Source: a virus
Strand: one strand, 5' to 3'
Length of the DNA: 13,232 nucleotides
UHGV virus genome: UHGV-0258858
Below are positions 1,723 through 13,232 of this stretch, piece by piece. Position 1 is the stretch's first letter; every line of letters begins with the position of its first letter. The notes under the pieces are model-generated. The model was not told the origin of the DNA, searched no databases, and worked only from the letters and a program-made list of their open reading frames with translations. The position numbers were made by a program, and so were the translations under genes.

Positions 1723-2811
1723 TTACGCGGCAGGGACATTAACGGTTACTGTCGCCAGAGCGACAAAATTACCGTTATCACTCATGACCACGACCGACGT
1801 TGTTCCTTTCTCAAGTGCGTTTACCGTCACTGTGTTCTCCTTCAACGTGGCTGTGGCCACCGCACGATGCACGGTCGACACCCTTAATGAAGGATCAGAC
1901 GCATTATCCGGCAACACAGCCACAGTAAGTGTGCCTGCCTTCCCTTTTTCTAGGGTCAGGGTTTCCGGTTTAATGGTCACACCGGAAACCGGCGTAATTT
2001 TAGTGAGATTTTCAGCCATCGACGGGCGTCCCACATTGGTAACTTTCACCGTTCTGGTGATCACTTCCTTCGCCGTCACGGCCTTACCGATACTGCTGAC
2101 CCAGCCACTGAACACATCCACCGTACCATTCGGGAACCGGATTTTATAGGCCCTGACATCCCCGCTTTCAAACCATGCGATAAGCCCTTTCTGACCTTTC
2201 TCACCCGGTTTCCAGGCCAGCGTAAAACTGGTATCACCTGCAGATTTCTGTCCCTGCCCGGTCGCGGTCCAGTCCGCGTCTTCATCATCCAGGTAGTTAT
2301 CATCGTAGGATTCAGCCGTCATCTCGCCCGGCGTCAGATCCTTCACCTTAGCCAGTCGCTGCCAGTCATCGTCTGACAACGGGTTTGCATAAGCATCAGC
2401 CTTGCCGTTGTAAACCCACAGAGTGGTACCGGCACCTTTTACCGGCTCCAGGGGATTTGGTGTTGCCATATCGTCATCACGATGATACTCATAGCCCTGC
2501 GTAACCATCGTGGTAATCAGTCCTGCCAGTGCCGGGATCGCAGTCATCGCCGGATAAATCCGGCTTTCCATCCACTGATCGAGCTCCGAATCAGGTACCT
2601 GTGCCGGTAAAAACACCTCAATATGCAGTGTGGCCCGCCAGGTATCTGCATCCAGCTCTTCACCGGTATACTCTGCATCCGTCAGATAAACCGCGATCGC
2701 AGGAAAATCCTCTTCGTCAAAAACAACGGGGCGACCATCAAACAGCGTCGCCCCGTGTTCATGCTGCTCGAGTGCATCCAGCACTGCGGCACGAATGTCA
2801 GTGTGTTTCAT
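1723..2811 (-). CDS. Single 362-codon ORF: tail terminator (lambda gpU-like, residues 1-114, 2470..2811) fused in frame to major tail protein with C-terminal Ig-like domain (lambda gpV-like, 248 aa, 1723..2469)
   Basis: N-terminus [28 protein letters not shown]...[10 protein letters not shown] matches lambda gpU residues 1-114. It is followed directly by [20 protein letters not shown]...VTVNVPAA, which matches lambda gpV from its initiator Met. There is no stop, intergenic spacer or ribosome-binding site between the two parts. The U start overlaps the Z stop (ATGA). Confidence 0.85.
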
Positions 2812-3341
2812 CGTTTTATCGCAATCCTCAGTTGTTGTTTCAGCGCGTATGCCAGTTCTTTAGGCAGGCGTTCACGCCGGATACGGTCAACATTCTCATC
2901 AAATGCCTGTTTCAGTGGGGCCGCCATCGGGATTTTCACCACATCAATGGGGTAACGGTTTTTCCCGGCCACACGCTGCATGACATGCCAGCGACCATTT
3001 TTTAATCGCTGAATAAATGCCCGCTGATACCGATGCTGACCGGCTTTAAGTATGCTGTTCGGGCGACGCCCCAGCATCCTGATCCCCAGCTTAATCACAG
3101 GGAGATCACCGCGGTTAACGATAATTCTGGCATTCGGATTTCTGACCGTCGCCCGTTTCAGTCTGGACCGTTCCTTAACCAGTTTCCGGCGAACCTTTGT
3201 CTCCCGGGCAACCTGTGACGAAGACTGATTAATCGCCGTTGTGGCCACGCGGTTAATCGTCATTGCTGAAGCCGCCGGAATGGCGTTTTTACGAACCCGG
3301 CTCAGATTATCAATCGCCTGATCAAGCCCTTTTATCGCCAT
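2808..3341 (-). CDS. Z: Tail completion protein (lambda gpZ-like), 177 aa
   Basis: [16 protein letters not shown]...[23 protein letters not shown]...[26 protein letters not shown]...[15 protein letters not shown] aligns with lambda gpZ. ATG at 3341 is preceded by AGGGTGA. Confidence 0.9.
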
Positions 3342-3356
3342 AATTTCACCCTGCGT

Positions 3357-3710
3357 TTATCGTCGCCGGTTAACAGCGGGTGGTTGCCCACGGTTGAGCC
3401 AGAGATAACAGCTTCCCCCGTCATCCGGAGAAACACGATCCACCCAGAACATCTCGCCGTTAATGGTCAGCGTGTCACCACGCTGCACGGCACGCACCGT
3501 ATCCGTCCGCACAAATAATGACGGGCTGCTTCCTTCAATACGGACCCCGCCACCGGCAAAACCCAGCGACTCCGGATCGTCAAAAACCCCCTGAACTTCG
3601 CTTCCACGCTGTGCTCCCGAGGTGAACTGCGCACAGAGCCCCATCACTTCAACAATCGTGCTGTCCACCCCGGCAAGGGCAGCATCAAAGGCATTCTGAA
3701 AATCACGCAT
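3357..3710 (-). CDS. FII: Head-tail joining protein (lambda gpFII-like), 117 aa
   Basis: MRDFQNAFDAALAGVD...GVFDDPESLGFAGGGVRIEGSSPSLFVRTDTVRAVQRGDTLTINGEMFWVDRVSPDDGGSCYLWLNRGQPPAVNRRR is near-identical in length and motif order to lambda gpFII. Confidence 0.92.
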   Translation of the reverse strand: MRDFQNAFDAALAGVDSTIVEVMGLCAQFTSGAQRGSEVQGVFDDPESLGFAGGGVRIEGSSPSLFVRTDTVRAVQRGDTLTINGEMFWVDRVSPDDGGSCYLWLNRGQPPAVNRRR

Positions 3711-3939
3711 GCTCAGCCGTTCCGTGCTGTATCATGGCTGTCGCCAGTGGTGATGGCACCATAACACGCATGCCCCGGTACGTCAGTTCAACGGGACGGC
3801 CTGTCTCCGGGCAATACCCCATCACATGCAGGCATTTCCGCACACGGACCGCTTTAACATCATCCGTAGCATCCGTGTTGTGCAACTGCTCACCATCGTC
3901 TGTGTGATTTTGATCAGCCCCGCTCTCATCAGAGTGCAT
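3703..3939 (-). CDS. FI: C-terminal portion of DNA-packaging protein FI (lambda gpFI-like), 78 aa, separated from the N-terminal portion by an in-frame TAA
   Basis: ATG at 3939 preceded by GGAGGG at about 6-nt spacing. Acidic linker-like N-terminus (SDESGADQNHTDDGEQLHNTDATDD) followed by a region resembling the lambda FI C-terminal domain. Same frame as the N-terminal piece. Confidence 0.6.
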   Translation of the reverse strand: MHSDESGADQNHTDDGEQLHNTDATDDVKAVRVRKCLHVMGYCPETGRPVELTYRGMRVMVPSPLATAMIQHGTAEHA

Positions 3940-3969
3940 AATGCCCTCCGGGGAAACAGCAAGCTCCTC

Positions 3970-4086
3970 TTACCACTCAGACACACGTTGAGCAATATCC
4001 GCAGCACTCCCCGACATATCCGCCTCTCGCCCCAGCAGGCCAGCCAGTTCACGAAGGCGATTCAGATTTTCTTCTTTTGTTGCCAT
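3970..4086 (-). CDS. FI: N-terminal portion of DNA-packaging protein FI (lambda gpFI-like), 38 aa, ended by an in-frame TAA
   Basis: ATG at 4086 preceded by AGGAGA at 7-nt spacing. MATKEENLNRLRELAGLLGREADMSGSAADIAQRVSEW resembles the lambda FI N-terminus (MTKDELIARLRSLGEQLNRD...LALRVAEL). TAA at 3970-3972. Not in the ORF track because it is shorter than the cut-off. Confidence 0.6.
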   Translation of the reverse strand: MATKEENLNRLRELAGLLGREADMSGSAADIAQRVSEW

Positions 4087-4099
4087 CTCAGTCTCCTGT

Positions 4100-4131
4100 G
4101 AAAAAAGACACGGGGGCATTTCGCCCCCGCT
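4100..4131 (-). terminator. Rho-independent terminator immediately downstream of the major capsid gene
   Basis: Minus-strand CGGGGGC-GAAAT-GCCCCCG (7-bp GC stem, 5-nt loop; 4111-4117 pairs with 4123-4129) followed by GTCTTTTTTC. It starts 7 nt after the gpE stop. Confidence 0.7.
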
Positions 4132-4137
4132 CACGGA

Positions 4138-5166
4138 TTATTTCACCTGCACCACCACAAACTCATCCGGATCCGGCAGCACCATCAGCGGTGCGGACTG
4201 CGTCATGGTGAATTCACGGGCCGGATCGCCCACAGTCAGCCAGTGTTTCGGATAACGGGAAGAGGCCACCACACCTTCGGACAACGCCTGCGCATCCTGA
4301 ATGGCACCATAGCAACGAATGCCCTCTGCTGCCGTATTCCCCAGGACCAGTGTGCCCTCCGGCAGATAACGTTTTTCGGTACCGTCCTCTGCCACATAAG
4401 ACGTTTTCGCCACCACAATGGCCAGATCGCCGTAATACCCCTTGAAGGACACCACCGCCCCCAGGTCTTTCACTGCCGTTTCGAGTTGTGAATTTGAGCC
4501 GCGACGGGTATCCAGGTTTTCGCGGAACAGCTTAAAGCCATTCAGCAGACGCCAGACCGTACCGTCCATAATGGCGATATTCACAAGGCCGCTGGCCTGA
4601 TCGCAGTAGAGGTCAATATCATGCGTCGGATCAAACGTATCACGGTCCTGCTCAGACCATTTTTTACCGTCAGCCTGCTCAATGTTATTTCCTTCAGAGC
4701 GCCCGAAATCCACCTCGACAGTATCAAACTGATCCCCTTCCATGGTGTATTTGCCATACAGCACGGCATTCACCGCCTGCATTTCTTCCACCTGGACAAT
4801 GGCGTGCTCTTCCTGTTTGAGGTTATCGGTAATGATACGCAGACGACGGTAGGCCGGGTCGTTCAGCTGAGCCGGATCTTCACCGGGAAGGCGCTCAACC
4901 GCCTGCTGGTAATTAAATTCGTGTTTCGGCTTAACGTAGCCCGGACGTAACACGCGGGTTTCACCACCGCGATGGCGAAGCACTTTTCCTTCAACGATCG
5001 GGGAGACATAGGCCGCCACCGGCGTTTTTCCGGTAATTTTGTCCAGCATCACCTCTTCGGTGTGGAAATTCACCGTACGGCGGAAAAACAGCTCCAGAAA
5101 CAGCGCACGGAATTTAACTTTTTGTTCGGTATAACCGAGTAACTGGCGGGTCGTAAACAATCCCAT
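4138..5166 (-). CDS. E: Major capsid protein (lambda gpE-like), 342 aa
   Basis: MGLFTTRQLLGYTEQKVKF...PGYVKPKHE...VQVEEMQAV...KYTMEGDQFD...LDTRRGSNSQLETAVKDLG...GDPAREFTMTQSAPLMVLPDPDEFVVVQVK is collinear with lambda gpE (341 aa). AGGA ribosome-binding site 8 nt upstream of the ATG. Confidence 0.95.
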   Translation of the reverse strand: MGLFTTRQLLGYTEQKVKFRALFLELFFRRTVNFHTEEVMLDKITGKTPVAAYVSPIVEGKVLRHRGGETRVLRPGYVKPKHEFNYQQAVERLPGEDPAQLNDPAYRRLRIITDNLKQEEHAIVQVEEMQAVNAVLYGKYTMEGDQFDTVEVDFGRSEGNNIEQADGKKWSEQDRDTFDPTHDIDLYCDQASGLVNIAIMDGTVWRLLNGFKLFRENLDTRRGSNSQLETAVKDLGAVVSFKGYYGDLAIVVAKTSYVAEDGTEKRYLPEGTLVLGNTAAEGIRCYGAIQDAQALSEGVVASSRYPKHWLTVGDPAREFTMTQSAPLMVLPDPDEFVVVQVK

Positions 5167-7113: not shown

Positions 7114-8695
7114 GTGGTGTTGTCTCCTCTTCCGGCCTGCGACTCTCCGCTATCTGCTGCTGATACGCCTGCACTATCCACACCGGACGTGAGAGTCCGG
7201 CTTTTTCCCGCTCTGCAGATTCCCTGACCTGCTGGCGGAAAATGTCCTGATAATCCTCGCCCATCAGCGCCAGCTCTTTCTCATACGTGCTCAGTCCGGC
7301 CTCAATGCGCATCACTGATTCCTGAACCTCCTTGAGCCCGTCAATGGCCATTCTTCCGGCTCCAATCCACTCAGCCCGTGACCAGGCTGATCGCGCCTGA
7401 TAAAAATCAAAACGTGCCCGTGGCGGACGAATAATCCCCCGAAGAAGTGCCTCTTCCAGCCAGCAGGAAAACATCTGCGTGGCCAGCCGGGACGCAATAA
7501 ATTTTCGCCGCCCCATAAAATAGCGCCACGACTCATTGGCGGATGCGCGGGCACTTGAATAACTGACCTTCGAGTAATCACGGGACAACTGTTCGTAGGA
7601 AACGCCAAGACCGGCGGCGATATACCGCAGCAGCGCCTGTTCAAGCGCCGAAAATCCATTGTCTGAATCCTGCGCGGTCTGAAGTTTCAGATCATCACCG
7701 GGGAAAAGGTGCGGAATTTTGACACCGCCCAGCGTCACGCTATTCGTGTCATACCAGGTGGAGAACTTATCCAGAATATTAATAAGCGGATTATCCTTCT
7801 GCCCCTGCGGCGCACCGGCGATATATTCAAAGGCCTTTTCGGTATCAAGGTCACTTTCAATCGTCGCTGCATACATCGCCTTCACTATGGCCGACTGAAG
7901 CTGTGTTGCCTGCAGGGAATCCAGCATCTTCAGCCGTTCCATAACGCTGTAAAACTGATTGGCTCCACGGGTCTGCCCGTCCTCCACCGGCTCGAAAATA
8001 TGCAGCATGGCCGGACGCCCGGTGGGAAGTTCACGCGGGATCCGTTCCCATCGTCCACTCCCGGAGCGAGGAAAATCATCCTCACAGATATGGTACGCAA
8101 CGGCACGGCCATATCGATCAACCTCCACACCGGCCCGCAGAAAACGGTTCCCGATACCGTGTCCTGGCGTGTCCACCCGTTTCGGACTCACGGCTTTAAA
8201 ACGCGTACGAAACAGTTGCGTGCTCTCCGTATCCCAGACCGGCTGCACAAAGATTTCGCCGTTAAACGCATGAACGCCCACACCTTCACGGATAAATTCC
8301 GTAAACGTGCGTTTCCCTTCCACGTCGATCTCACCAAACATCCCTTCTGCGTATTCTGACCAGGCCGCCTCCACCTCATCGACAAAACTTTTTGCCGCGG
8401 TCTCCCGCATCCCCAGCCAGCGCCAGTTCGGACGGTAGCTAATCAGAAACATATGCCCGACAATGTGATCCTTATGCAGGGCCACCGCATTGGCCGCTAT
8501 TCCGTTATTGCGCACCAGATCATCTGCACGGGCATTCCCCAGACGCAACGCGGGCAGCAGGGCCGCATCGGCACTCTGCGAGGGTGGCAACCACTCTGCC
8601 ATTTGCCCGCCAAATCCTGCGCCGCCCCCGTTGTAGCTTAGGCTCTCCCGAAGCGGAACGCCGTTCACATCAATCAGGACAGGCGTTCGTTTCAT
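7103..8695 (-). CDS. B: Portal protein (lambda gpB-like), 530 aa
   Basis: MKRTPVLI...FEPVEDGQTRGANQFYSVMERLKMLDSLQATQLQSAIVKAMYAATIESDLD...SYEQLSRDYSKVSYSSARASANESW...RMAIDGLKEVQESVMRIEAGLSTYEKE is collinear with lambda gpB (533 aa). Confidence 0.95.
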   Translation of the reverse strand: MKRTPVLIDVNGVPLRESLSYNGGGAGFGGQMAEWLPPSQSADAALLPALRLGNARADDLVRNNGIAANAVALHKDHIVGHMFLISYRPNWRWLGMRETAAKSFVDEVEAAWSEYAEGMFGEIDVEGKRTFTEFIREGVGVHAFNGEIFVQPVWDTESTQLFRTRFKAVSPKRVDTPGHGIGNRFLRAGVEVDRYGRAVAYHICEDDFPRSGSGRWERIPRELPTGRPAMLHIFEPVEDGQTRGANQFYSVMERLKMLDSLQATQLQSAIVKAMYAATIESDLDTEKAFEYIAGAPQGQKDNPLINILDKFSTWYDTNSVTLGGVKIPHLFPGDDLKLQTAQDSDNGFSALEQALLRYIAAGLGVSYEQLSRDYSKVSYSSARASANESWRYFMGRRKFIASRLATQMFSCWLEEALLRGIIRPPRARFDFYQARSAWSRAEWIGAGRMAIDGLKEVQESVMRIEAGLSTYEKELALMGEDYQDIFRQQVRESAEREKAGLSRPVWIVQAYQQQIAESRRPEEETTPRET

Positions 8696-8896
8696 AACCT
8701 CACTCCCAGCGGACGACGGCGACGGCGGGTTGTCCCCAGTACCGACTCCGCATCATTGAGCCCGGTTAAGCTCATCCAGAGAAGCTGCCGTATATTCAAT
8801 TCTGCGACCATCTTTCTGGACAGACACCACCCGTTTACCGGTTAATAAATCAAGGCGCGCCTGACGCAGCGCCTGCAGTTCAGCGACTGTAACCAT
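8692..8896 (-). pseudogene. W: Head-tail joining protein W (lambda gpW-like) split across two reading frames by an apparent frameshift
   Basis: Frame a: ATG at 8896 (GGAGGAG ribosome-binding site) gives [47 protein letters not shown], then a stop at 8753-8755; this matches lambda gpW residues about 4-50. Frame b (+1): ...[21 protein letters not shown] ends in a TGA that overlaps the portal ATG (ATGA) and matches the lambda gpW C-terminus (...[21 protein letters not shown]). One gene, two frames. Confidence 0.6.
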
Positions 8897-10808
8897 TCAC
8901 TCCTCCGGACAGCTTCGCTGCCAGTTCTTTAAGGGTTGGCCGGGTCGTCTCTTCTTCCCGGGATTTTGCCAGTACAGCCAGATCAAGCTGCCAGCGTTGC
9001 ACGGACACACGTAATGCCGCGTAGGCATACACCAGGCAGTCCAGCGCTTCGTTACGCCGCTTTTTGTTATCCCACAGCAGACGCATCTTTCCTTTTTCCC
9101 ACTTCTCCACAAGCTCTTCCGCCACCAGTTGCTGCGCCTCTGTCTGCGAAAAAATCTCCGGATCATCAGGAAAACGGATGGCATACGACGTGGCTTCATC
9201 CGCAGGCGTGGGATCGGCTTTCATACGGGCATAGAGAATTTCTTTTGCGGTGTCCGTCCCCACTTCGCACAGATACACGCCCCGCTGATTGCGGGTTTTT
9301 GGCATGGTGATCACCGGCTTGCCATAAACAGATGCACCTTTTACCGGCAGCCCCCGGAAAACACCGTGTTTTTTTGACCTCTGATAGACAATTTCGCCAT
9401 CGATCCCCCCGGTGTCCCAGCAGACACGGGAAATGGTCATTTCGGTTCCGTCTGCATGGCGGTATTTTTTGTTGATCGCCACATCCACACGTAACAGCGT
9501 CTCTTCCTCATCGGGACGCCCCATAATGATGATTTTATCCACCAGAAAGGCTTCCTCTCCCGGAGCCCATCCCCAGACATACATCTCAAAACGGTTTCGC
9601 TGCGAGTCAATGCCCGCCGTCAGATAAACCACCCGGGCAGGCACCGCCGCCGTGTAACGCACAACCTTATCCATCAGTACCTGGTGATCGAGTTTTTCGC
9701 CCACGGCCTCTTCCCAGGTCTCGCCCAGCGTGGTGTTCACAAAGGTTTTCAGGCCGTTGGGATCTTTCAGTGCATCCAGCCAGTCATAGACAATCTGTAC
9801 CCAGGTGGTGAACGGACTGTACGCCGTCCAGATATGGAATGTGATGGAGCGCGGCGGCGGAATTTCATTACCCGCAGCGCTGAAAAACGTCAGGCCGTCA
9901 CGGGTCCACATGCCCGTGTTTTCACAGATCCACCGCCCGTTGCTCTGGTCAAGATCAGACTGATGGATCACGCAGCCATGATGTTCACAGAGGTAGAAAA
10001 CACTTTCTGGACTGTCCTTCTCCCATTTAAGGCCAAAAGGCGTGGACTCATCGCCAAATTTCAGATACTGCGCCTCCCCACAGTGTGGGCAGGGCACATA
10101 AAAACGCATGAAATGCGCCGACTCGTTGGCCGCTTTTTCGATCTGGCAGGAGCCTTTTATTTTAGGCGTCGAGCCGCGAATGGATTTTGGCCATACCGAG
10201 CCCTCAATACGCTTATCCCCCAGCAGGGTTGGCGAGCCCTCTTTTTCGACATCCGGCTCGAACGAGGAAAGTTCGTCATAGCAGACCACGTCCACGGATT
10301 TTTCACGGTAGTTTTTTGCTGCCGCACCACCCAGGCACCAGAAGCCCACCCCCGATGAAAAGCGTTTCAGCGTGAGAGTATTGTCACGATGTTTACGACC
10401 CAGCCACGGGGAAAGATCTTTCAGGCATGGCACGTCCCGAATCGTCGCCTCCACGTGAGACTTCATAAAATCTTCAGCGGCAGAATCCGTGGGCTGAAAA
10501 AGCAGACTGTTTCGGGATTTATGCTCAATAAAATACCCGGCGACTCCCAGCAACATCTTTGTATAGCCAACACGGGCAGATTTAATCAGATTAACAGTGC
10601 GGATCTGATCATTCCCCATACTGTTCATGATGGCGATCTGGAACGGCAGCGTTTTCCATTCGCCGTCACCGTATGAGGATTCTTTCGGCAGATAATAATA
10701 CTGGTCAGCCCATTCAACTGCCGTCATCGGTACAACCCTGACCAGAGGCTGCAGCGCAACCGAAACGGCGGCCACCATATTATTCAGTTGTTGCTCTGAT
10801 ATATTCAT
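8880..10808 (-). CDS. A: Terminase large subunit (lambda gpA-like), 642 aa
   Basis: [10 protein letters not shown]...[37 protein letters not shown]...[32 protein letters not shown]...[26 protein letters not shown]...CPHCGE.QYLKFGD...[18 protein letters not shown]...[11 protein letters not shown]...KRRNEALDC is collinear with lambda gpA (641 aa). Start chosen by alignment; the 19-codon upstream extension in the tracked ORF overlaps Nu1 and is rejected. Start overlaps the Nu1 3' end by 29 nt, as in lambda. Confidence 0.95.
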
Positions 10809-11286
10809 CGAGTAAATCCGGTAATTTATCCCCCGCCCGCGCACACTGATTTGCCCCCTTCGCAATAAGGGTTTTCAGATGGTCAAGATGGCGCGGTGTT
10901 AAATCAGGAAACTGTCGCTGCATGGATAACGGAATGGAATCAAGCGTACTGGACAATGCCATCGCCAGTTTGCTGAGGGCGAAAACGCAGAAGTCTGAAT
11001 CGATGAGCTTACCTTCGGTTACCTGATTTTTAAGTTTTTGAGCTACAGCCTGTTCTTCTGTCAGTTCAGCTCTGGCCCGAAGCAGCCTTTCCTCCAGTTC
11101 TCCCCCGTCATCAGGTGTTCTCTGATTGTGTTGTCGCCGCTCGCGATCTATCTCCAGTACAGTTTTAACGTCATATAAAACTTCCCTCCCCCGACGTTCA
11201 ACAGGAGGAACGCCCCATTTATCAAATGCCTGAACAGAGATACCGATGGAGGAGGCCATATCACTTTTATTCAATAAAAAGGCCAT
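10780..11286 (-). CDS. Nu1: Terminase small subunit (lambda gpNu1-like), 168 aa
   Basis: ATG at 11286 immediately preceded by GGAGAGGAG. MAFLLNKSDMASSIGISVQAFDKWGVPPVERRGREVLYD... aligns with the lambda Nu1 N-terminal DNA-binding region (MEVNKKQLADIFGASIRTIQNWQEQGMPV...GNEVLYD); C-terminus ...RQFPDLTPRHLDHLKTLIAKGANQ resembles lambda ...RRFPELENRHVDFLKRDIIKAMNK. The 35-codon upstream extension in the tracked ORF is rejected. Confidence 0.85.
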   Translation of the reverse strand: MAFLLNKSDMASSIGISVQAFDKWGVPPVERRGREVLYDVKTVLEIDRERRQHNQRTPDDGGELEERLLRARAELTEEQAVAQKLKNQVTEGKLIDSDFCVFALSKLAMALSSTLDSIPLSMQRQFPDLTPRHLDHLKTLIAKGANQCARAGDKLPDLLDEYIRATTE

Positions 11287-11502
11287 CTCCTCTCCATAAG
11301 TCATCGATAAAAAGCGAAACAACAACCATGTGTTTTTGCAAAACCATTTGATATCATTGATATTTTTCGCATTGACGACATCAAAACACATCGTAAGGTT
11401 GTTGTATTTATTTTATTTTCACCTTACTTATCAATTAGATATACAAAACAATTAAACAACAACCACCCCCTCAAAAAATCTCATAAATAGTGAAAACGCG
11501 CG
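11287..11502 (-). promoter_or_regulatory. cosB-like terminase-binding region between cosN and the Nu1 start: three copies of a GGTTGTTGT element in direct/inverted/direct arrangement around an AT-rich segment
   Basis: Minus-strand GGTTGTTGTTT at about 11455-11465 and 11317-11327; inverted copy (plus-strand GGTTGTTGTATTT) at 11398-11410. The AT-rich stretch 11410-11455 lies between them. The arrangement parallels lambda R3 / IHF site / R2 / R1, but the repeat sequence is not the lambda one. Confidence 0.6.
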
Positions 11503-11514
11503 AGGTCGCCGCCC
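11503..11514 (-). other. cosN cohesive-end site, exact match to the lambda 12-nt cohesive end GGGCGGCGACCT
   Basis: Minus strand reads ...CCGTTACGGGGCGGCGACCTCGCGCGTTTTCACTATTTATGAGATTTTTT..., matching lambda cosN and its flank (GGGCGGCGACCTCGCGGGTTTTCGCTATTTATGAAAATTTT) with only a few substitutions. Orientation is correct relative to Nu1. Confidence 0.85.
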
Positions 11515-11881
11515 CGTAACGGCCCGGATCGCCGGAAAGGACCCGAGAAAATGATAATGGTTATCAGTTGCAACAAAATCCAGTTTCTTCCACCATCGCA
11601 CCGGACGAGCGACCATGAGGGGACAACGCCACGCTCCGTTAACGCGGTAAACTCCGGTGTTTATCGTTTTTGATTATCCCCGCACACTCGCGCAGAGGAG
11701 TCTCCCGGTAGGGCTGCGGTCTCTGTTCATGTGGGAATACGGCGACGATACTGCGCAAAGACATGCTTCAGAAATACATAAGTAAACTAAAATATTGTAT
11801 CTCTGTGGCTAATTACGTAAATTGGTGGCTTGGCCCCTTTAGCCACCGGCAAATCTTCAGCGGATTATCCTTGGCCGGTTT

Positions 11882-12340
11882 TTATCTGAGGCATTGCTCA
11901 CGAATGTATAGCTGTGCCCCTTCCAGCTGCTTCTGCATTGTCATCAACCGTTCTCTGAGGATGAAATAATCCCGTTCAGCGGCGTCTGCCAGTCTGGGGC
12001 CGGTTGCATTATCCACGCCGGAGGTGGTGGGGGCTTCACGCACGGAGCCTGGACAGGTGGCGTTGATCCGCAGGCGCTTACGACCAGCGGCAACGTCAGC
12101 GCGAAGAGTTTCATTTTCAGCTCTCGCATCGGCTAATTCCCTCGAGTATTTTGCATCGAGCGCAGCAACATCGCGCTGGCGCACCTGCATATCAGTAATG
12201 GTTGCGTTCGCCAGCTTCAGTTCACTGGCTTTGTTATCGCGCTGCGCTTTGTAGGTAATCGCGTTATCACGGTAATGGTCTGTTGCCATCCACAGCGCTC
12301 CACAGGCCACCAGCAGAATAACGATAAACGCGGAAAGCAT
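11882..12340 (-). CDS. Rz: Inner-membrane spanin (lambda Rz-like), 152 aa from ATG 12340; alternative GTG start at 12355 overlaps the upstream stop
   Basis: [90 protein letters not shown]...[43 protein letters not shown] is near-collinear with lambda Rz (153 aa): N-terminal transmembrane segment then coiled coil. Confidence 0.92.
11944..12129 (-). CDS. Rz1: Outer-membrane lipoprotein spanin (lambda Rz1-like), 61 aa, embedded in the +1 frame of Rz
   Basis: [61 protein letters not shown]: signal peptide with lipobox (VSAC), penta-proline stretch, and near-identity to lambda Rz1 (...[32 protein letters not shown]). Lies entirely within Rz. Confidence 0.85.
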
Positions 12341-12351
12341 TCGGTTTATGT

Positions 12352-12483
12352 TCACCCCAGCAGCCCCGACGAAGACAACATCATCCAGGCCATGGAAAGA
12401 AAAAGAGCAACCAGCATTAGTGAAAATGAAATGCCGACAATTACACAGAGGATCTTCGCCAGCGTTATGAGTTTGTCTGACAT
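12352..12483 (-). CDS. Small hypothetical membrane protein, 43 aa ([43 protein letters not shown]), between the endolysin and Rz
   Basis: ATG at 12483 preceded by a strong ribosome-binding site (AAGGGAGGA, 7-nt spacing). Single predicted transmembrane helix. Stop TGA overlaps the GTG at 12355 of the Rz frame. No family recognised. Confidence 0.55.
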
Positions 12484-12497
12484 GCTTAATCCTCCCT

Positions 12498-12680
12498 TCA
12501 CGATTTCAACGCAATGACCAGTTTTGCCAGCCCATACAGCATCGGGGACACAGCAACACCGACCGCCACCCACTTAATGGCAAAAGCCAGTGCTCTGCTG
12601 ATGTCATCAGTTACAGGCGCTTTCAGTTCAAGGCCGTTTTTCATAGTCAACCTCAACAGAATTCGTTTATACTTTTCCAT
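12498..12680 (-). CDS. Small hypothetical protein with C-terminal transmembrane anchor, 60 aa from ATG 12680 (71 aa if started at GTG 12713)
   Basis: [60 protein letters not shown]: basic N-terminus and hydrophobic C-terminal segment. AGGGAGA precedes the ATG at a short (3-4 nt) spacing. Stop TGA sits inside the ribosome-binding site of the next small ORF. The GTG alternative lies inside the terminator hairpin. No family recognised. Confidence 0.45.
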
Positions 12681-12707
12681 GTTCTCCCTTGCCTTATCCA
12701 AGGTCAG

Positions 12708-12747
12708 AAACACAAAACCCCGCTTGCAGCCAACAAACGGGGTTTTT
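12708..12747 (-). terminator. Intrinsic terminator hairpin between the endolysin stop and the small ORFs; U-tracts on both sides, better stem on the minus-strand transcript
   Basis: Plus strand CCCCGCTTG-CAGCCAA-CAAACGGGG (12718-12742) followed by TTTTTACTTTTATT. On the minus-strand RNA the single C/A mismatch becomes a G-U pair, giving a 9-bp stem with a 7-nt loop followed by UUUUGUGUUU. Confidence 0.65.
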
Positions 12748-12836
12748 ACTTTTATTCACTTAGTTTTTGTCAGTTCGCAGGATTTCGTGTTATCCGTCCG
12801 TGTGAGCAAACCGCATTTTTCAGCAAAATATTCTGC

Positions 12837-13232
12837 TTATCTGTCAATTCCCCAGCACGCCAGCGCGCTCTCCTGGTCACGCCGCGATACCTGCCCGTAA
12901 CAGTTATTTGAGCGATTCCGACAGTCCCTGCCGCCGTCATATATCCATCGGCGGATTTCAGCACATGCACCTTTCCGGTCTCCGGCGTTCAGTTTCCGGT
13001 AAAACGTTGAGGTGAAGCATTTCGAAGGCCCGATGTTGTACGGACAGAATGACGCGATGCCCGCTTTCTGCGGTTCAGTCAGTGGCAATTTGATGTTTTT
13101 CTCCACCCATGCCAGCGCCTTATCACGTTCAATGGCATTAACCTGAGCGCATTTTTCCTTCGACAACTTCATGCCCGGGACGACAGGTTTGCCATCCACC
13201 ATGATGGCACCACGGCAGATGGTCCAGATACC
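12837..13232 (-). CDS. R: Endolysin, T4/phage-21-type lysozyme (glycoside hydrolase family 24), C-terminal 131 codons; 5' end lies beyond the window end
   Basis: Frame open from the window edge: GIWTICRGAIMVDGKPVVPGMKLSKEKCAQVNAIERDKALAWVEKNIKLPLTEPQKAGIASFCPYNIGPSKCFTSTFYRKLNAGDRKGACAEIRRWIYDGGRDC...ALACWGIDR resembles phage 21 R / T4 lysozyme-type endolysins (GVWTVCHG...GACDQLRRWTYAGG). TAA stop at 12837-12839. Confidence 0.9.
   Translation of the reverse strand, partial: GIWTICRGAIMVDGKPVVPGMKLSKEKCAQVNAIERDKALAWVEKNIKLPLTEPQKAGIASFCPYNIGPSKCFTSTFYRKLNAGDRKGACAEIRRWIYDGGRDCRNRSNNCYGQVSRRDQESALACWGIDR

What the first reader, a model, noticed from the sequence alone, without database searches (positions are those of the whole stretch)
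11287..11560. Lambda-identical cosN combined with non-lambda cosB repeats and a diverged Nu1 DNA-binding N-terminus
The 12-nt cohesive-end sequence and its immediate flank match lambda almost exactly, yet the three putative terminase small-subunit binding elements are GGTTGTTGT-type rather than lambda R-sites, and the Nu1 N-terminal region differs from lambda Nu1. This is the situation known for lambda versus phage 21 (same cosN, different cosB/Nu1 specificity), so this prophage probably has its own packaging specificity. The internal position of cos confirms an integrated or circularly permuted context.
Basis: partly seen in the sequence, partly recalled or inferred. Interest (0 to 1): 0.45.

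Follow-up and report, generated by a model that had tools for sequence, protein, structure and literature searches.

The report
Prophage cos site, N15/Monarch type
This is the DNA-packaging start site (cos) of a lambda-like E. coli prophage: lambda's exact cutting site is joined to three binding sites and a small-terminase DNA-binding domain of the phage N15 type, a combination already published as the "Monarch" type, so it is real but ordinary.

Summary
All features lie on the minus strand.

- **cosQ:** GGGTCCT at 11544..11538.
- **cosN:** GGGCGGCGACCT at 11514..11503, 12/12 identical to lambda, 21 and phi80.
- **Repeats:** three exact GGTTGTTGT copies (0.12 expected by chance), arranged R3 direct, R2 inverted, R1 direct.
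- **IHF-like core:** lies between R3 and R2 at the same position as lambda I1.
- **TerS gene:** a 168-aa Nu1-family protein at 11286..10780.

The R core equals phage N15's mapped R3. The TerS recognition helix (ISVQAFDKW) is identical to N15 gp1. The DNA-binding domain is 72% identical to N15, against 35% to lambda and 21% to phage 21.

N15-type sites in a lambda-like tripartite cosB, with no remote rR2 site, is the "Monarch" prophage group (Feiss et al. 2015). All 26 diverse bacterial loci encoding this domain carry the motif at the same offset. About 5% of complete E. coli genomes carry this cosB.

Relative to phage PhiR12_1, a 389-bp cassette (cosB plus the TerS DNA-binding domain) has been swapped.

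Side observation: EcCICFT073-family satellite islands carry a second cos copying helper-type cosB, including this type.

The parts
11538..11544 (-). cosQ (GGGTCCT), the packaging-termination subsite
   Evidence: Exact 7-mer with the same 23-bp distance to the cosN nick as in lambda. It is invariant in an alignment of six diverged cos regions. PMC4669245 describes the 7-bp cosQ as highly conserved in lambda-like phages.
11503..11514 (-). cosN, the 12-nt cohesive-end sequence GGGCGGCGACCT (cos bp 1-12)
   Evidence: 12/12 identical to lambda, 21 and phi80; N15 matches at 10/12.
11482..11491 (-). Conserved CTATTTATGA block in the cosN-to-R3 spacer (cos bp 24-33)
   Evidence: Present in lambda, 21, phi80 and N15. 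It is recognisable in most of the 26 diverse loci, and in those the R3 motif starts 23-27 bp after it.
11454..11467 (-). R3, the critical TerS binding site: GGTGGTTGTTGTTT (cos bp 48-61, core GGTTGTTGT at bp 51-59)
   Evidence: GGTTGTTGTTTAAT is 14/14 identical to N15 bp 50-63. N15's R3 was mapped to bp 48-60 by block mutagenesis (PMC4669245 and PMC9026076). All 26 loci encoding this DNA-binding domain carry (G/A)GTTGTTGTTT upstream of the TerS gene.
11429..11441 (+). Candidate IHF site I1: TATCAATTAGATA (cos bp 74-86)
   Evidence: 12/13 match to WATCAANNNNTTR. It sits between R3 and R2. It has the same position and orientation as the YAANNNNTTGATW-like core I read at lambda bp 74-86, and as the annotated phage 21 IHF sequence 2 at bp 75-85. 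The TATC...TTGATAA sequence is kept in diverged relatives L036 and L037. This is a consensus match only.
11397..11407 (+). R2, an inverted TerS binding site (cos bp 108-118; minus strand reads ATACAACAACC)
   Evidence: Exact inverted core. The R3-R2 centre-to-centre distance is 59 bp, against 61 bp in lambda. The ATACAACAACCTGA block is well conserved among diverged complex cosBs.
11317..11327 (-). R1, a direct TerS binding site: GGTTGTTGTTT (cos bp 188-198)
   Evidence: Exact core. It is conserved in L036 (one mismatch), L037 and L012. The R2-R1 distance is 78 bp, against 41 bp in lambda.
10780..11286 (-). terS (Nu1 homologue, 168 aa). Codons 1 to about 50 form the N15-type winged-helix DNA-binding domain. 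Codons from about 67 on form the self-assembly and TerL-binding part.
   Evidence: Pfam PF07471 Phage_Nu1, E = 4e-21, 75.7 bits against a cut-off of 30. Residues 1-26 are 24/26 identical to N15 gp1, and the ISVQAFDKW helix is identical. The DNA-binding domain is 72% identical to N15. The C-terminal part is 88% identical to PhiR12_1.
11085..11473 (-). The 389-bp specificity cassette (cos bp 42 to TerS codon 67) that differs from PhiR12_1-type relatives
   Evidence: Local blastn: the flanks are 98.2% (12400..11474) and 94.4% (11084..9205) identical to PhiR12_1, with no alignment between them. In that interval PhiR12_1 has CATGTCCGGTT-type repeats and a DNA-binding domain with no detectable similarity to the window's.
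8880..10808 (-). terL (gpA homologue), the endonuclease/ATPase that would nick cosN; it overlaps terS by 29 nt
   Evidence: Pfam GpA_ATPase 2.6e-54 and GpA_nuclease 4.6e-70. It is 85.6% nucleotide-identical to phage 21 gene 2. The start position is transferred from the RefSeq annotation of strain SCU-106.

Best explanation
The region is the cohesive-end packaging site of a lambda-like E. coli prophage, organised as cosQ - cosN - (conserved spacer) - R3 - I1 - R2(inverted) - R1 - terS - terL.

Inferred mechanism, by analogy with lambda. A TerS dimer docks its two winged-helix domains on R3 and R2. An IHF-induced hairpin at I1 brings these two sites face to face, and R1 adds affinity. The C-terminus of TerS holds TerL about 47 bp away, over cosN. 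TerL makes nicks staggered by 12 nt, leaving the 5' overhang GGGCGGCGACCT, and packaging then proceeds through terS. cosQ plus cosN terminate packaging at the next cos.

The recognition pair (the GGTTGTTGT sites and the ISVQAFDKW helix) is the phage N15 / Monarch specificity, not that of lambda or 21. Here it sits on a lambda/21-like cosN, cosQ and TerL backbone as a discrete 389-bp cassette.

Shown here: sequence identities, architecture, co-occurrence of motif and domain, and the cassette boundaries. Inferred: binding, bending, nicking and the specificity phenotype.
For: - cosN is 12/12 identical to lambda, and cosQ is exact at lambda spacing.
- Three exact GGTTGTTGT copies lie in direct/inverted/direct order. 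Expectation is 0.12, and 0 of 200 shuffles reach 3.
- R3 sits at bp 48-61, against N15's mutationally mapped R3 at bp 48-60, with a 14/14 identical GGTTGTTGTTTAAT.
- TerS is a Nu1-family protein, and its recognition helix is identical to N15 gp1.
- Twenty-eight loci were collected by protein similarity only. Of these, 26 encode the N-terminal DNA-binding domain (the other two matched only the C-terminal part). They come from Escherichia, Trabulsiella, Pluralibacter, Erwinia, Aeromonas, Pseudomonas, Halomonas, Marinobacter and others. All 26 carry (G/A)GTTGTTGTTT upstream of terS, 24 of them the exact 9-mer, usually 23-27 bp after the CTATNTATGA block. There are 30 hits in 8.6 kb upstream, against 11 in 79 kb elsewhere, and most of the copies found inside or near terS are the known rR2 site at +149..+161.
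- In diverged complex cosBs (69% mean column identity across the alignment), cosQ, R3, the IHF-like core, R2 and R1 stand out as conserved blocks.
- The literature describes exactly this architecture as the Monarch group.
- The cassette boundaries against PhiR12_1 fall at cos bp 41/42 and TerS codon 67/68.
Against: - No experiment exists on this prophage. TerS binding, IHF binding and end formation are inferred.
- The IHF match is a 12/13 consensus hit in AT-rich DNA. The window-wide count of such hits is not above chance (6 found, 7.95 expected).
- Gene W carries a 2-bp deletion relative to strain SCU-106, so this copy may not make infectious particles, or the assembly has an error.
- The R2-R1 spacing is 37 bp longer than in lambda. 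The role of R1 is therefore less certain.
- I could not obtain the Monarch sequence itself, so membership rests on the features stated in the paper.
Confidence: 0.9

Rival explanations
1. The cos site is intact in sequence, but the prophage is defective. The site would then be a relic, used only if another phage or satellite supplies functions.
For: Gene W (head-tail joining) has a 2-bp deletion relative to strain SCU-106 that splits it into two ORF fragments. The closest complete genome, NCTC9112, has its TerL annotated as frameshifted.
Against: terS, terL, portal, protease and capsid ORFs are full length in the window. All cos subsites are exact. A 2-bp indel could be an assembly error. PhiR12 phages, deposited as phage genomes with laboratory E. 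coli K-12/C hosts, share 94-98% identical flanks. This rival concerns the activity of this copy, not what the element is.
Confidence: 0.25
2. The prophage has a private, previously unseen packaging specificity. This is the strong form of the first reader's reading.
For: No record among 50,697 phage genomes aligns across R2-R1 of this cosB. The closest phage DNA-binding domain is N15, at 78% identity over 45 residues.
Against: The recognition helix is identical to N15's, and the R core plus its flank (14 bp) is identical to N15 R3. The same pair is conserved in 26 diverse loci. The Monarch group with this architecture is published. 287 of 5,426 complete E. coli genomes carry at least 80% of this cosB, and 99 IMG/VR contigs carry the exact tripartite pattern.
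Confidence: 0.05
3. The GGTTGTTGT repeats are not terminase sites. They would be chance repeats in AT-rich DNA, or operators for some other regulator of late or terminase gene expression.
For: The cosB interval is AT-rich, at 23-33% GC. The cores are short (9-11 bp). No binding data exist for this element.
Against: 0 of 200 shuffles give 3 copies. The motif sits at a fixed offset from cosN and strictly co-occurs with one TerS DNA-binding domain type across distant genera. When the domain changes (PhiR12_1, phage 21, lambda, the O157 island), the repeats change with it. Block mutations in N15 R3 affect packaging (PMC4669245).
Confidence: 0.03
4. The cos belongs to a phage satellite (PICI) rather than to the prophage.
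For: Satellite islands do carry the same tripartite cosB type.
Against: Here cos is followed directly by terS, terL, W, portal, protease, decoration, capsid and tail genes, and preceded by lysis genes. There is no convergent second cos and no rpp-like gene.
Confidence: 0.02

Closest known systems
Monarch group of N15-like prophages (Feiss et al. 2015, Virology 482:260; PLoS One 10:e0141934 = PMC4669245)
   Same: It has lambda-like cohesive ends and cosQ. It has a complex cosB with three R sequences, R2 inverted, and an IHF site between R3 and R2. R3 strongly matches R3 of N15. The TerS recognition helix equals N15's. There is no rR2. The window shows every one of these features.
   Different: Nothing detected. 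The Monarch sequence itself was not available to me (PMC4461450 is not held). I therefore cannot give the identity to Monarch, or say whether Monarch's cosN is also 12/12 lambda.
Bacteriophage N15 cos / gp1
   Same: The R3 core and flank match (GGTTGTTGTTTAAT) at the same distance from the end, within 1 bp. The recognition helix is identical, and the DNA-binding domain is 72% identical.
   Different: N15 has a simple cosB: R3 only, terS ATG at bp 89, and a remote inverted rR2 inside gene 1. The window has I1, R2 and R1, with the ATG at bp 229 and no rR2. N15's cosN differs from the window's at 2 of 12 positions. The TerS C-terminal part is only 38% identical.
Bacteriophage lambda cos / gpNu1
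   Same: Identical cosN and cosQ, with the same cosQ-to-nick spacing. The same R3-I1-R2-R1 order and orientation. R3-R2 spacing is 59 bp against 61 bp. The IHF-like core lies at bp 74-86 in both.
   Different: The R sequences are unrelated (CGTTTCC-type in lambda). The DNA-binding domain is 35% identical. R2-R1 is 37 bp longer here, and the terS ATG is at bp 229 rather than 191.
Bacteriophage 21 cos / gp1, gp2
   Same: Identical cosN. The first 47 bp are 89% identical. TerL is 85.6% nucleotide-identical. This is the textbook case of one cosN with a different cosB/TerS pair.
   Different: The R sites are of TGTCGG type, and the DNA-binding domain is 21% identical.
Phage PhiR12_1 (PV340549) and the CFT073 potB prophage
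   Same: The same lysis-cos-terminase-head backbone (98% and 94% identical flanks). The TerS C-terminal part is 88% identical. cosN and cosQ are the same.
   Different: The 389-bp cassette is replaced. It carries R sites of CATGTCCGGTT type and a DNA-binding domain (VATQTEVARHLSLTDRQLRRL...) with no detectable similarity to the window's.
EcCICFT073-family PICI satellites (Fillol-Salom et al. 2018, 2019)
   Same: They carry lambda-type cosQ and cosN. In strain-142-type islands one of the two cos sites has the same R3-I1-R2-R1 GGTTGTTGT cosB as the window. It is 78% identical overall, with the R cores exact.
   Different: No terS follows that cos. It faces a second, Rpp-associated cos across an rpp-like gene. 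It lies in an island of about 11 kb, not in a prophage.

Membership tests
Lambda-like cos site (cosQ-cosN-cosB) | A 12-base cohesive-end sequence with strong identity to lambda's | tested here: met
   GGGCGGCGACCT at 11514..11503 is 12/12 identical to lambda, 21 and phi80.
Lambda-like cos site (cosQ-cosN-cosB) | A 7-bp cosQ upstream of cosN | tested here: met
   GGGTCCT at 11544..11538, 23 bp before the nick as in lambda. It is invariant in alignment A3.
Lambda-like cos site (cosQ-cosN-cosB) | Terminase makes 12-nt staggered nicks here, giving 5' overhangs on virion DNA | not testable with these tools
   This needs end mapping of packaged DNA.
Monarch-type complex cosB with N15 specificity (PMC4669245) | R3 strongly matching R3 of N15, at about bp 48-60 | tested here: met
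   Window bp 48-61 reads GGTGGTTGTTGTTT. GGTTGTTGTTTAAT is 14/14 identical to N15 bp 50-63, offset by 1 bp.
Monarch-type complex cosB with N15 specificity (PMC4669245) | [quoted passage not shown] | tested here: met
   Exact cores at bp 51-59 (direct), 110-118 (inverted) and 188-196 (direct).
Monarch-type complex cosB with N15 specificity (PMC4669245) | [quoted passage not shown] | tested here: inconclusive
   TATCAATTAGATA matches the consensus at 12/13, at bp 74-86. This is the same place and orientation as lambda and 21 I1, and it is conserved in L036 and L037. The consensus count is not above chance window-wide, and there are no binding data.
Monarch-type complex cosB with N15 specificity (PMC4669245) | rR2 (a remote inverted R inside terS) is absent | tested here: met
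   No copy with at most 1 mismatch lies inside terS. Most simple-type loci have one at +149..+161.
Monarch-type complex cosB with N15 specificity (PMC4669245) | A TerS recognition helix identical to N15's | tested here: met
   ISVQAFDKW is identical, and residues 1-26 match at 24/26.
Monarch-type complex cosB with N15 specificity (PMC4669245) | Packaging specificity shared with N15 (functional) | not testable with these tools
   This needs helper-packaging assays. Even for Monarch the paper only proposes it.
Nu1-family small terminase (Pfam PF07471) | Profile match above the curated threshold, covering both the DNA-binding domain and the C-terminal part | tested here: met
   75.7 bits against a cut-off of 30. 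Residues 6-149 align to profile positions 4-163 of 164.
Nu1-family small terminase (Pfam PF07471) | An N-terminal winged helix-turn-helix fold like gpNu1 (PDB 1J9I) | tested here: inconclusive
   Single-sequence AlphaFold gives a strand-helix-helix-hairpin-helix topology for residues 4-53, with pLDDT 78-88. Sequence matches to 1j9i and 6hn7 are weak (E = 0.2-0.4). Foldseek found nothing at E <= 0.001; only MerR-type domains appear among the top hits.
Nu1-family small terminase (Pfam PF07471) | Followed by an overlapping gpA-type large terminase gene | tested here: met
   GpA_ATPase and GpA_nuclease domains, with a 29-nt overlap by transfer of the annotation.
N15-type simple cosB | A single R3 with terS starting about 40 bp later, plus rR2 in the gene | tested here: not met
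   The window has R2 and R1, the ATG lies 170 bp after the R3 core, and there is no rR2.
Lambda or phage 21 packaging specificity | R sequences and recognition-helix residues of lambda or 21 | tested here: not met
   There is no GTTGTTG-type core in the lambda, 21 or phi80 left ends, and the reverse also holds. DNA-binding domain identity is 35% and 21%.

The most novel reading that the evidence does not exclude
The cosB plus TerS-DBD cassette is a swappable specificity allele, and satellites track it.

EcCICFT073-family PICIs carry two convergent cos sites. One is the Rpp-dependent site. The other has had no phage cosB identified in it in the published work. My comparison indicates that this second cos is a full copy of a helper-type cosB, and that it switches allele in parallel with the helper prophages.

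- In CFT073 it is the PhiR12_1 type, matching the potB prophage that sits a few kb away in the same genome.
- In strain-142-type islands it is the GGTTGTTGT (Monarch) type found in the window.

On this reading, prophages like the one in the window would be natural helpers of that island variant, and would need no Rpp to recognise it. I found no statement of this in the three papers I read, but I cannot exclude that it is published elsewhere.
Probability: 0.35. Interest if true: 0.5.

Novelty: already known. Interest (0 to 1): 0.2.

Why it matters
For the window itself it matters little. It is a correct annotation of a cos site, and it tells an annotator which packaging specificity class the prophage belongs to (N15/Monarch, not lambda or 21).

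It has some practical use. It helps predict which co-resident prophages, cosmids or satellites this terminase could package, since N15-type terminase is reported to package lambda DNA but not the reverse.

The comparative data add modest support to published proposals:
- The R3/recognition-helix pair is conserved from Escherichia to Pseudomonas and Halomonas.
- The simple (R3 + rR2) and complex (R3-I1-R2-R1) architectures are cleanly separated.

The satellite observation, if confirmed, would explain the unexplained second cos of EcCICFT073.

Tried and rejected
- **Rfam scan of 11000-12000:** one sub-threshold snoRNA hit (E = 0.57), so no RNA element.
- **Promoter/terminator scan:** counts at or below shuffle expectation.
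- **PDB sequence search with TerS:** only weak matches to lambda TerS structures, 6hn7 and 1j9i at E = 0.2-0.4. The alignments look sensible but are not significant.
- **Single-sequence AlphaFold plus Foldseek against PDB:** the DNA-binding domain is confidently folded, but the whole model is poor (pTM 0.32) and no hit reaches E <= 0.001. I did not pursue this further, because the Pfam match already covers the domain.
- **The Virology 2015 paper that defines Monarch (PMC4461450):** not held, so there is no direct comparison with the Monarch sequence.
- **Megablast and blastn against 50,697 phage genomes:** no phage record aligns across R2-R1.
- **The repeats as chance or a regulatory operator:** considered and rejected (see rival explanations).
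- **A possible rR2 relic in the window's terS at about +152:** only 6/9 matches, so discounted.

Full report
**What is there.** The window is part of a lambdoid E. coli prophage. It is 99.7% identical over 13.2 kb to strain NCTC9112. The 1.2 kb around cos is 99.7% identical to strain SCU-106, which matches the whole window at 97.8%. All genes run on the minus strand in the order lysozyme, Rz-like lysis gene, cos, terS, terL, W, portal, S49 protease, decoration, major capsid, FI and tail genes. On the minus strand, GGGCGGCGACCT lies at 11514..11503. It is 12/12 identical to the cohesive ends of lambda, 21 and phi80; N15 matches at 10/12. I number cos positions from bp 1 = window 11514. The first 25 bp match lambda at 23/25 and the first 41 bp at 90%. 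cosQ (GGGTCCT, 11544..11538) is exact, with the same 23-bp spacing to the nick as in lambda. The coordinates in the finding, 11287-11560, run from just upstream of the terS start codon to just beyond cosQ.

**The repeats.** GGTTGTTGT occurs exactly three times in the window, all inside the finding. The copies lie at bp 51-59 (direct), bp 110-118 (inverted) and bp 188-196 (direct). Chance expectation is 0.12 copies, and 0 of 200 shuffles give three. The extended forms are GGTGGTTGTTGTTT (R3), ATACAACAACC (R2) and GGTTGTTGTTT (R1). The direct/inverted/direct order matches lambda R3/R2/R1. The R3-R2 centre distance is 59 bp, against 61 bp between the lambda CGTTTCC cores. R2-R1 is 78 bp against 41 bp, which accounts for terS starting at bp 229 rather than 191. 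Between R3 and R2 lies TATCAATTAGATA (plus strand, 11429-11441, bp 74-86), a 12/13 match to the IHF consensus. Read on the top strand as YAANNNNTTGATW, it occupies the same bp 74-86 as the corresponding lambda sequence, and it overlaps the annotated phage 21 IHF sequence 2 at bp 75-85. The consensus count over the whole window is not above chance, so this site is positional and comparative evidence only.

**The small terminase.** The ATG at 11286 is preceded by GGAGAGGAG. It opens a 168-aa protein that matches Pfam Phage_Nu1 at 75.7 bits (cut-off 30) across nearly the whole profile. terL follows, overlapping by 29 nt, with GpA ATPase and nuclease domains. The N-terminal 50 residues are 35% identical to lambda Nu1 and 21% to phage 21 gp1, but 72% identical to N15 gp1. 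Residues 1-26 match N15 at 24/26, and the predicted recognition helix ISVQAFDKW is identical. A single-sequence AlphaFold model gives the expected strand-helix-helix-hairpin-helix topology for residues 4-53 at pLDDT 78-88. The structural search returned nothing significant.

**Identification.** The N15 left end reads ...GAGGTTGTTGTTTAAT..., with GGTTGTTGT at bp 50-58. N15's critical R3 was mapped to bp 48-60 by block mutations (PMC4669245 and PMC9026076). The window's R sites are therefore N15-type sites. [quoted passage not shown] These have a strong match to N15's R3 and to the N15 TerS recognition helix. [quoted passage not shown] The window meets each sequence-level criterion. There is no copy with at most 1 mismatch inside terS. 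The finding is therefore another member of a published class. The specificity, however, is the N15/Monarch one rather than a private one. [quoted passage not shown]

**Independent comparative support.** Twenty-eight loci were recovered from a one-genome-per-species collection by protein similarity to TerS alone. Of these, 26 encode the N-terminal DNA-binding domain. They span Escherichia, Trabulsiella, Pluralibacter, Pseudocitrobacter, Erwinia, Aeromonas, Oceanimonas, Pseudomonas, Halomonas, Marinobacter and several MAGs. All 26 carry (G/A)GTTGTTGTTT upstream of terS, and 24 carry the exact 9-mer. In most of them the motif starts 23-27 bp after a conserved CTATNTATGA block. There are 30 exact hits in 8.6 kb upstream, against 11 in 79 kb elsewhere. 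Most of the copies found inside or near terS are the known inverted rR2 at +149..+161 in simple-type loci. Loci with an upstream inverted R2 (the window, L008, L009, L011, L012, L017) lack rR2, which reproduces the published dichotomy of simple versus complex cosB. An alignment of diverged complex cosBs shows conserved islands at cosQ, the CTATTTATGA block, R3, the IHF-like core, R2 and R1. The spacers drift, and so in some relatives does cosN itself.

**Prevalence.** At least 80% of this cosB is present in 287 of 5,426 complete E. coli genomes. The exact tripartite pattern occurs in 99 IMG/VR contigs. In 77 of these it is followed by a TerS with the QAFDKWG motif, and most carry the lambda-identical cosN. 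No record among 50,697 deposited phage genomes aligns across R2-R1. The closest phage DNA-binding domains are those of N15 and an Enterobacter phage, both at 78% identity.

**Mosaic structure.** Against phage PhiR12_1 the window is 98.2% identical from the lysis genes to cos bp 41, and 94.4% identical from TerS codon 68 through terL. The 389 bp in between (11473..11085) do not align. In that interval PhiR12_1 has CATGTCCGGTT-type repeats in the same direct/inverted arrangement. It also has a DNA-binding domain with no detectable similarity to the window's. The TerS C-terminal part, which in lambda holds TerL, stays with its TerL at 88% identity. The specificity determinant is thus a discrete cassette on a common backbone, as in lambda/21 hybrids.

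**Caveats.** Nothing here demonstrates binding, bending or cutting. Gene W carries a 2-bp deletion relative to strain SCU-106, so this copy may be defective or the assembly imperfect. I could not read the paper that defines Monarch, so membership rests on the criteria restated in PMC4669245.

**Seen in passing.** A diverged copy of the window's cosB (78% identical, with all three R cores exact) lies in an island of about 11 kb between phoQ and roxA in E. coli strain 142. The island carries an integrase, a RepA-type helicase, SSB, capsid and decoration genes, and a 146-aa HTH protein with a weak N-terminal resemblance to TerS DNA-binding domains (20% identity). That cos faces a second, convergent cos across the HTH gene. 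The second cos has the geometry described for PICI cos and rpp, with the start codon about 101 bp from cosN. EcCICFT073 is known to have two cos sites in which no phage cosB could be identified (PMC6092414 and PMC6739421). In CFT073 I find that the corresponding cos carries the PhiR12_1-type cosB. It aligns with the cos of the lambdoid prophage at potB, a few kb away in the same genome, through about bp 148. In IMG/VR, 19 of the 22 tripartite GGTTGTTGT cos sites that lack a following TerS have a convergent second cos within 900 bp. In one source genome the island co-occurs with a TerS-bearing prophage of the same cosB type. This suggests that the second PICI cos copies the cosB allele of natural helpers. 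It is a lead, not a result.

**Verdict.** The element is a lambda-like cos of the published N15/Monarch class, common in E. coli. Interest is low.

Noticed in passing
window 8692-8899 (minus strand), deletion near 8758: Gene W (head-tail joining protein) has a 2-bp deletion relative to strain SCU-106. This splits it into ORF fragments 8896..8753 and 8811..8692. The prophage copy may be defective, or the assembly may have an indel error.
   Followed up: partly
L039 (E. coli strain 142, NZ_CP048337) 12065-12895; L042 (CFT073) 326-1136; L043 20533: EcCICFT073-family islands have two convergent cos sites flanking an rpp-like gene. In strain 142 the second cos carries a full GGTTGTTGT R3-I1-R2-R1 cosB like the window's. 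In CFT073 it carries the PhiR12_1-type cosB, which matches the neighbouring potB prophage. The published papers I read say that no phage cosB was identified in these cos sites.
   Followed up: partly
IMG/VR loci L044-L142: Of 99 contigs with the exact tripartite pattern, 22 lack a following N15-type TerS, and 19 of those 22 have a convergent second cos within 900 bp. In one source genome (taxon 2585427729) such an island (L133) co-occurs with a TerS-bearing prophage of the same cosB type (L057). The R3-to-R1 span falls into two main length classes, 146 bp and 134 bp.
   Followed up: partly
L038 (E. coli O157:H7 ECP19-2498) 901-1588: An island with capsid and decoration genes has a lambda-type cosN followed by variant repeats (GGTGGTGGTGGTTT, ACACCAACC, GTTGGTGT). 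It also has a 180-aa TerS-like protein whose helix reads SATAFDKW instead of SVQAFDKW. This may be a co-varied derivative of the N15-type specificity. About 750 E. coli records match the window cosB at 60-80% identity, and the sampled rows in that band look like this class.
   Followed up: partly
L006 (PhiR12_1) 1887-2290 versus window 11473..11085: A cassette swap on an otherwise 94-98% identical backbone. PhiR12_1 has CATGTCCGGTT / AACCGGACATG repeats and a TerS DNA-binding domain with no detectable similarity to the window's (VATQTEVARHLSLTDRQLRRL...). This would be a further specificity class.
   Followed up: partly
L036 (E. coli OkiPb01701), L012, L010, L018: The same N15-type cosB and TerS DNA-binding domain is combined with non-lambda sequences at the cosN position (for example GGGGTCGGTAGACGCG or GGGTGCGTATACCCGC), while cosQ is kept. 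The cosB/TerS-DBD and cosN/TerL modules therefore assort independently.
   Followed up: no
L015-L035, L040 (Pseudomonas phage F10), L005 (N15): The R3 motif and the inverted rR2 at +149..+161 inside terS are conserved in simple-type loci from Pseudomonas, Aeromonas, Halomonas, Oceanimonas and others. This extends the N15 rR2 pattern well beyond enterics.
   Followed up: partly
window 11545-11881: There are about 340 bp of non-coding DNA between the Rz-like gene and cosQ. The cos-proximal part is about 91% identical in many Stx-converting phages. In other relatives this position holds inserted DUF1398 and YlcI/YnfO genes. There is no Rfam match, and one weak promoter-like site on the minus strand (11821..11794).
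   Followed up: partly
L041 (NCTC9112) 2425-4354: In the closest complete genome the terL of this prophage is annotated as frameshifted. That locus is also 64 bp longer than the window.
   Followed up: no
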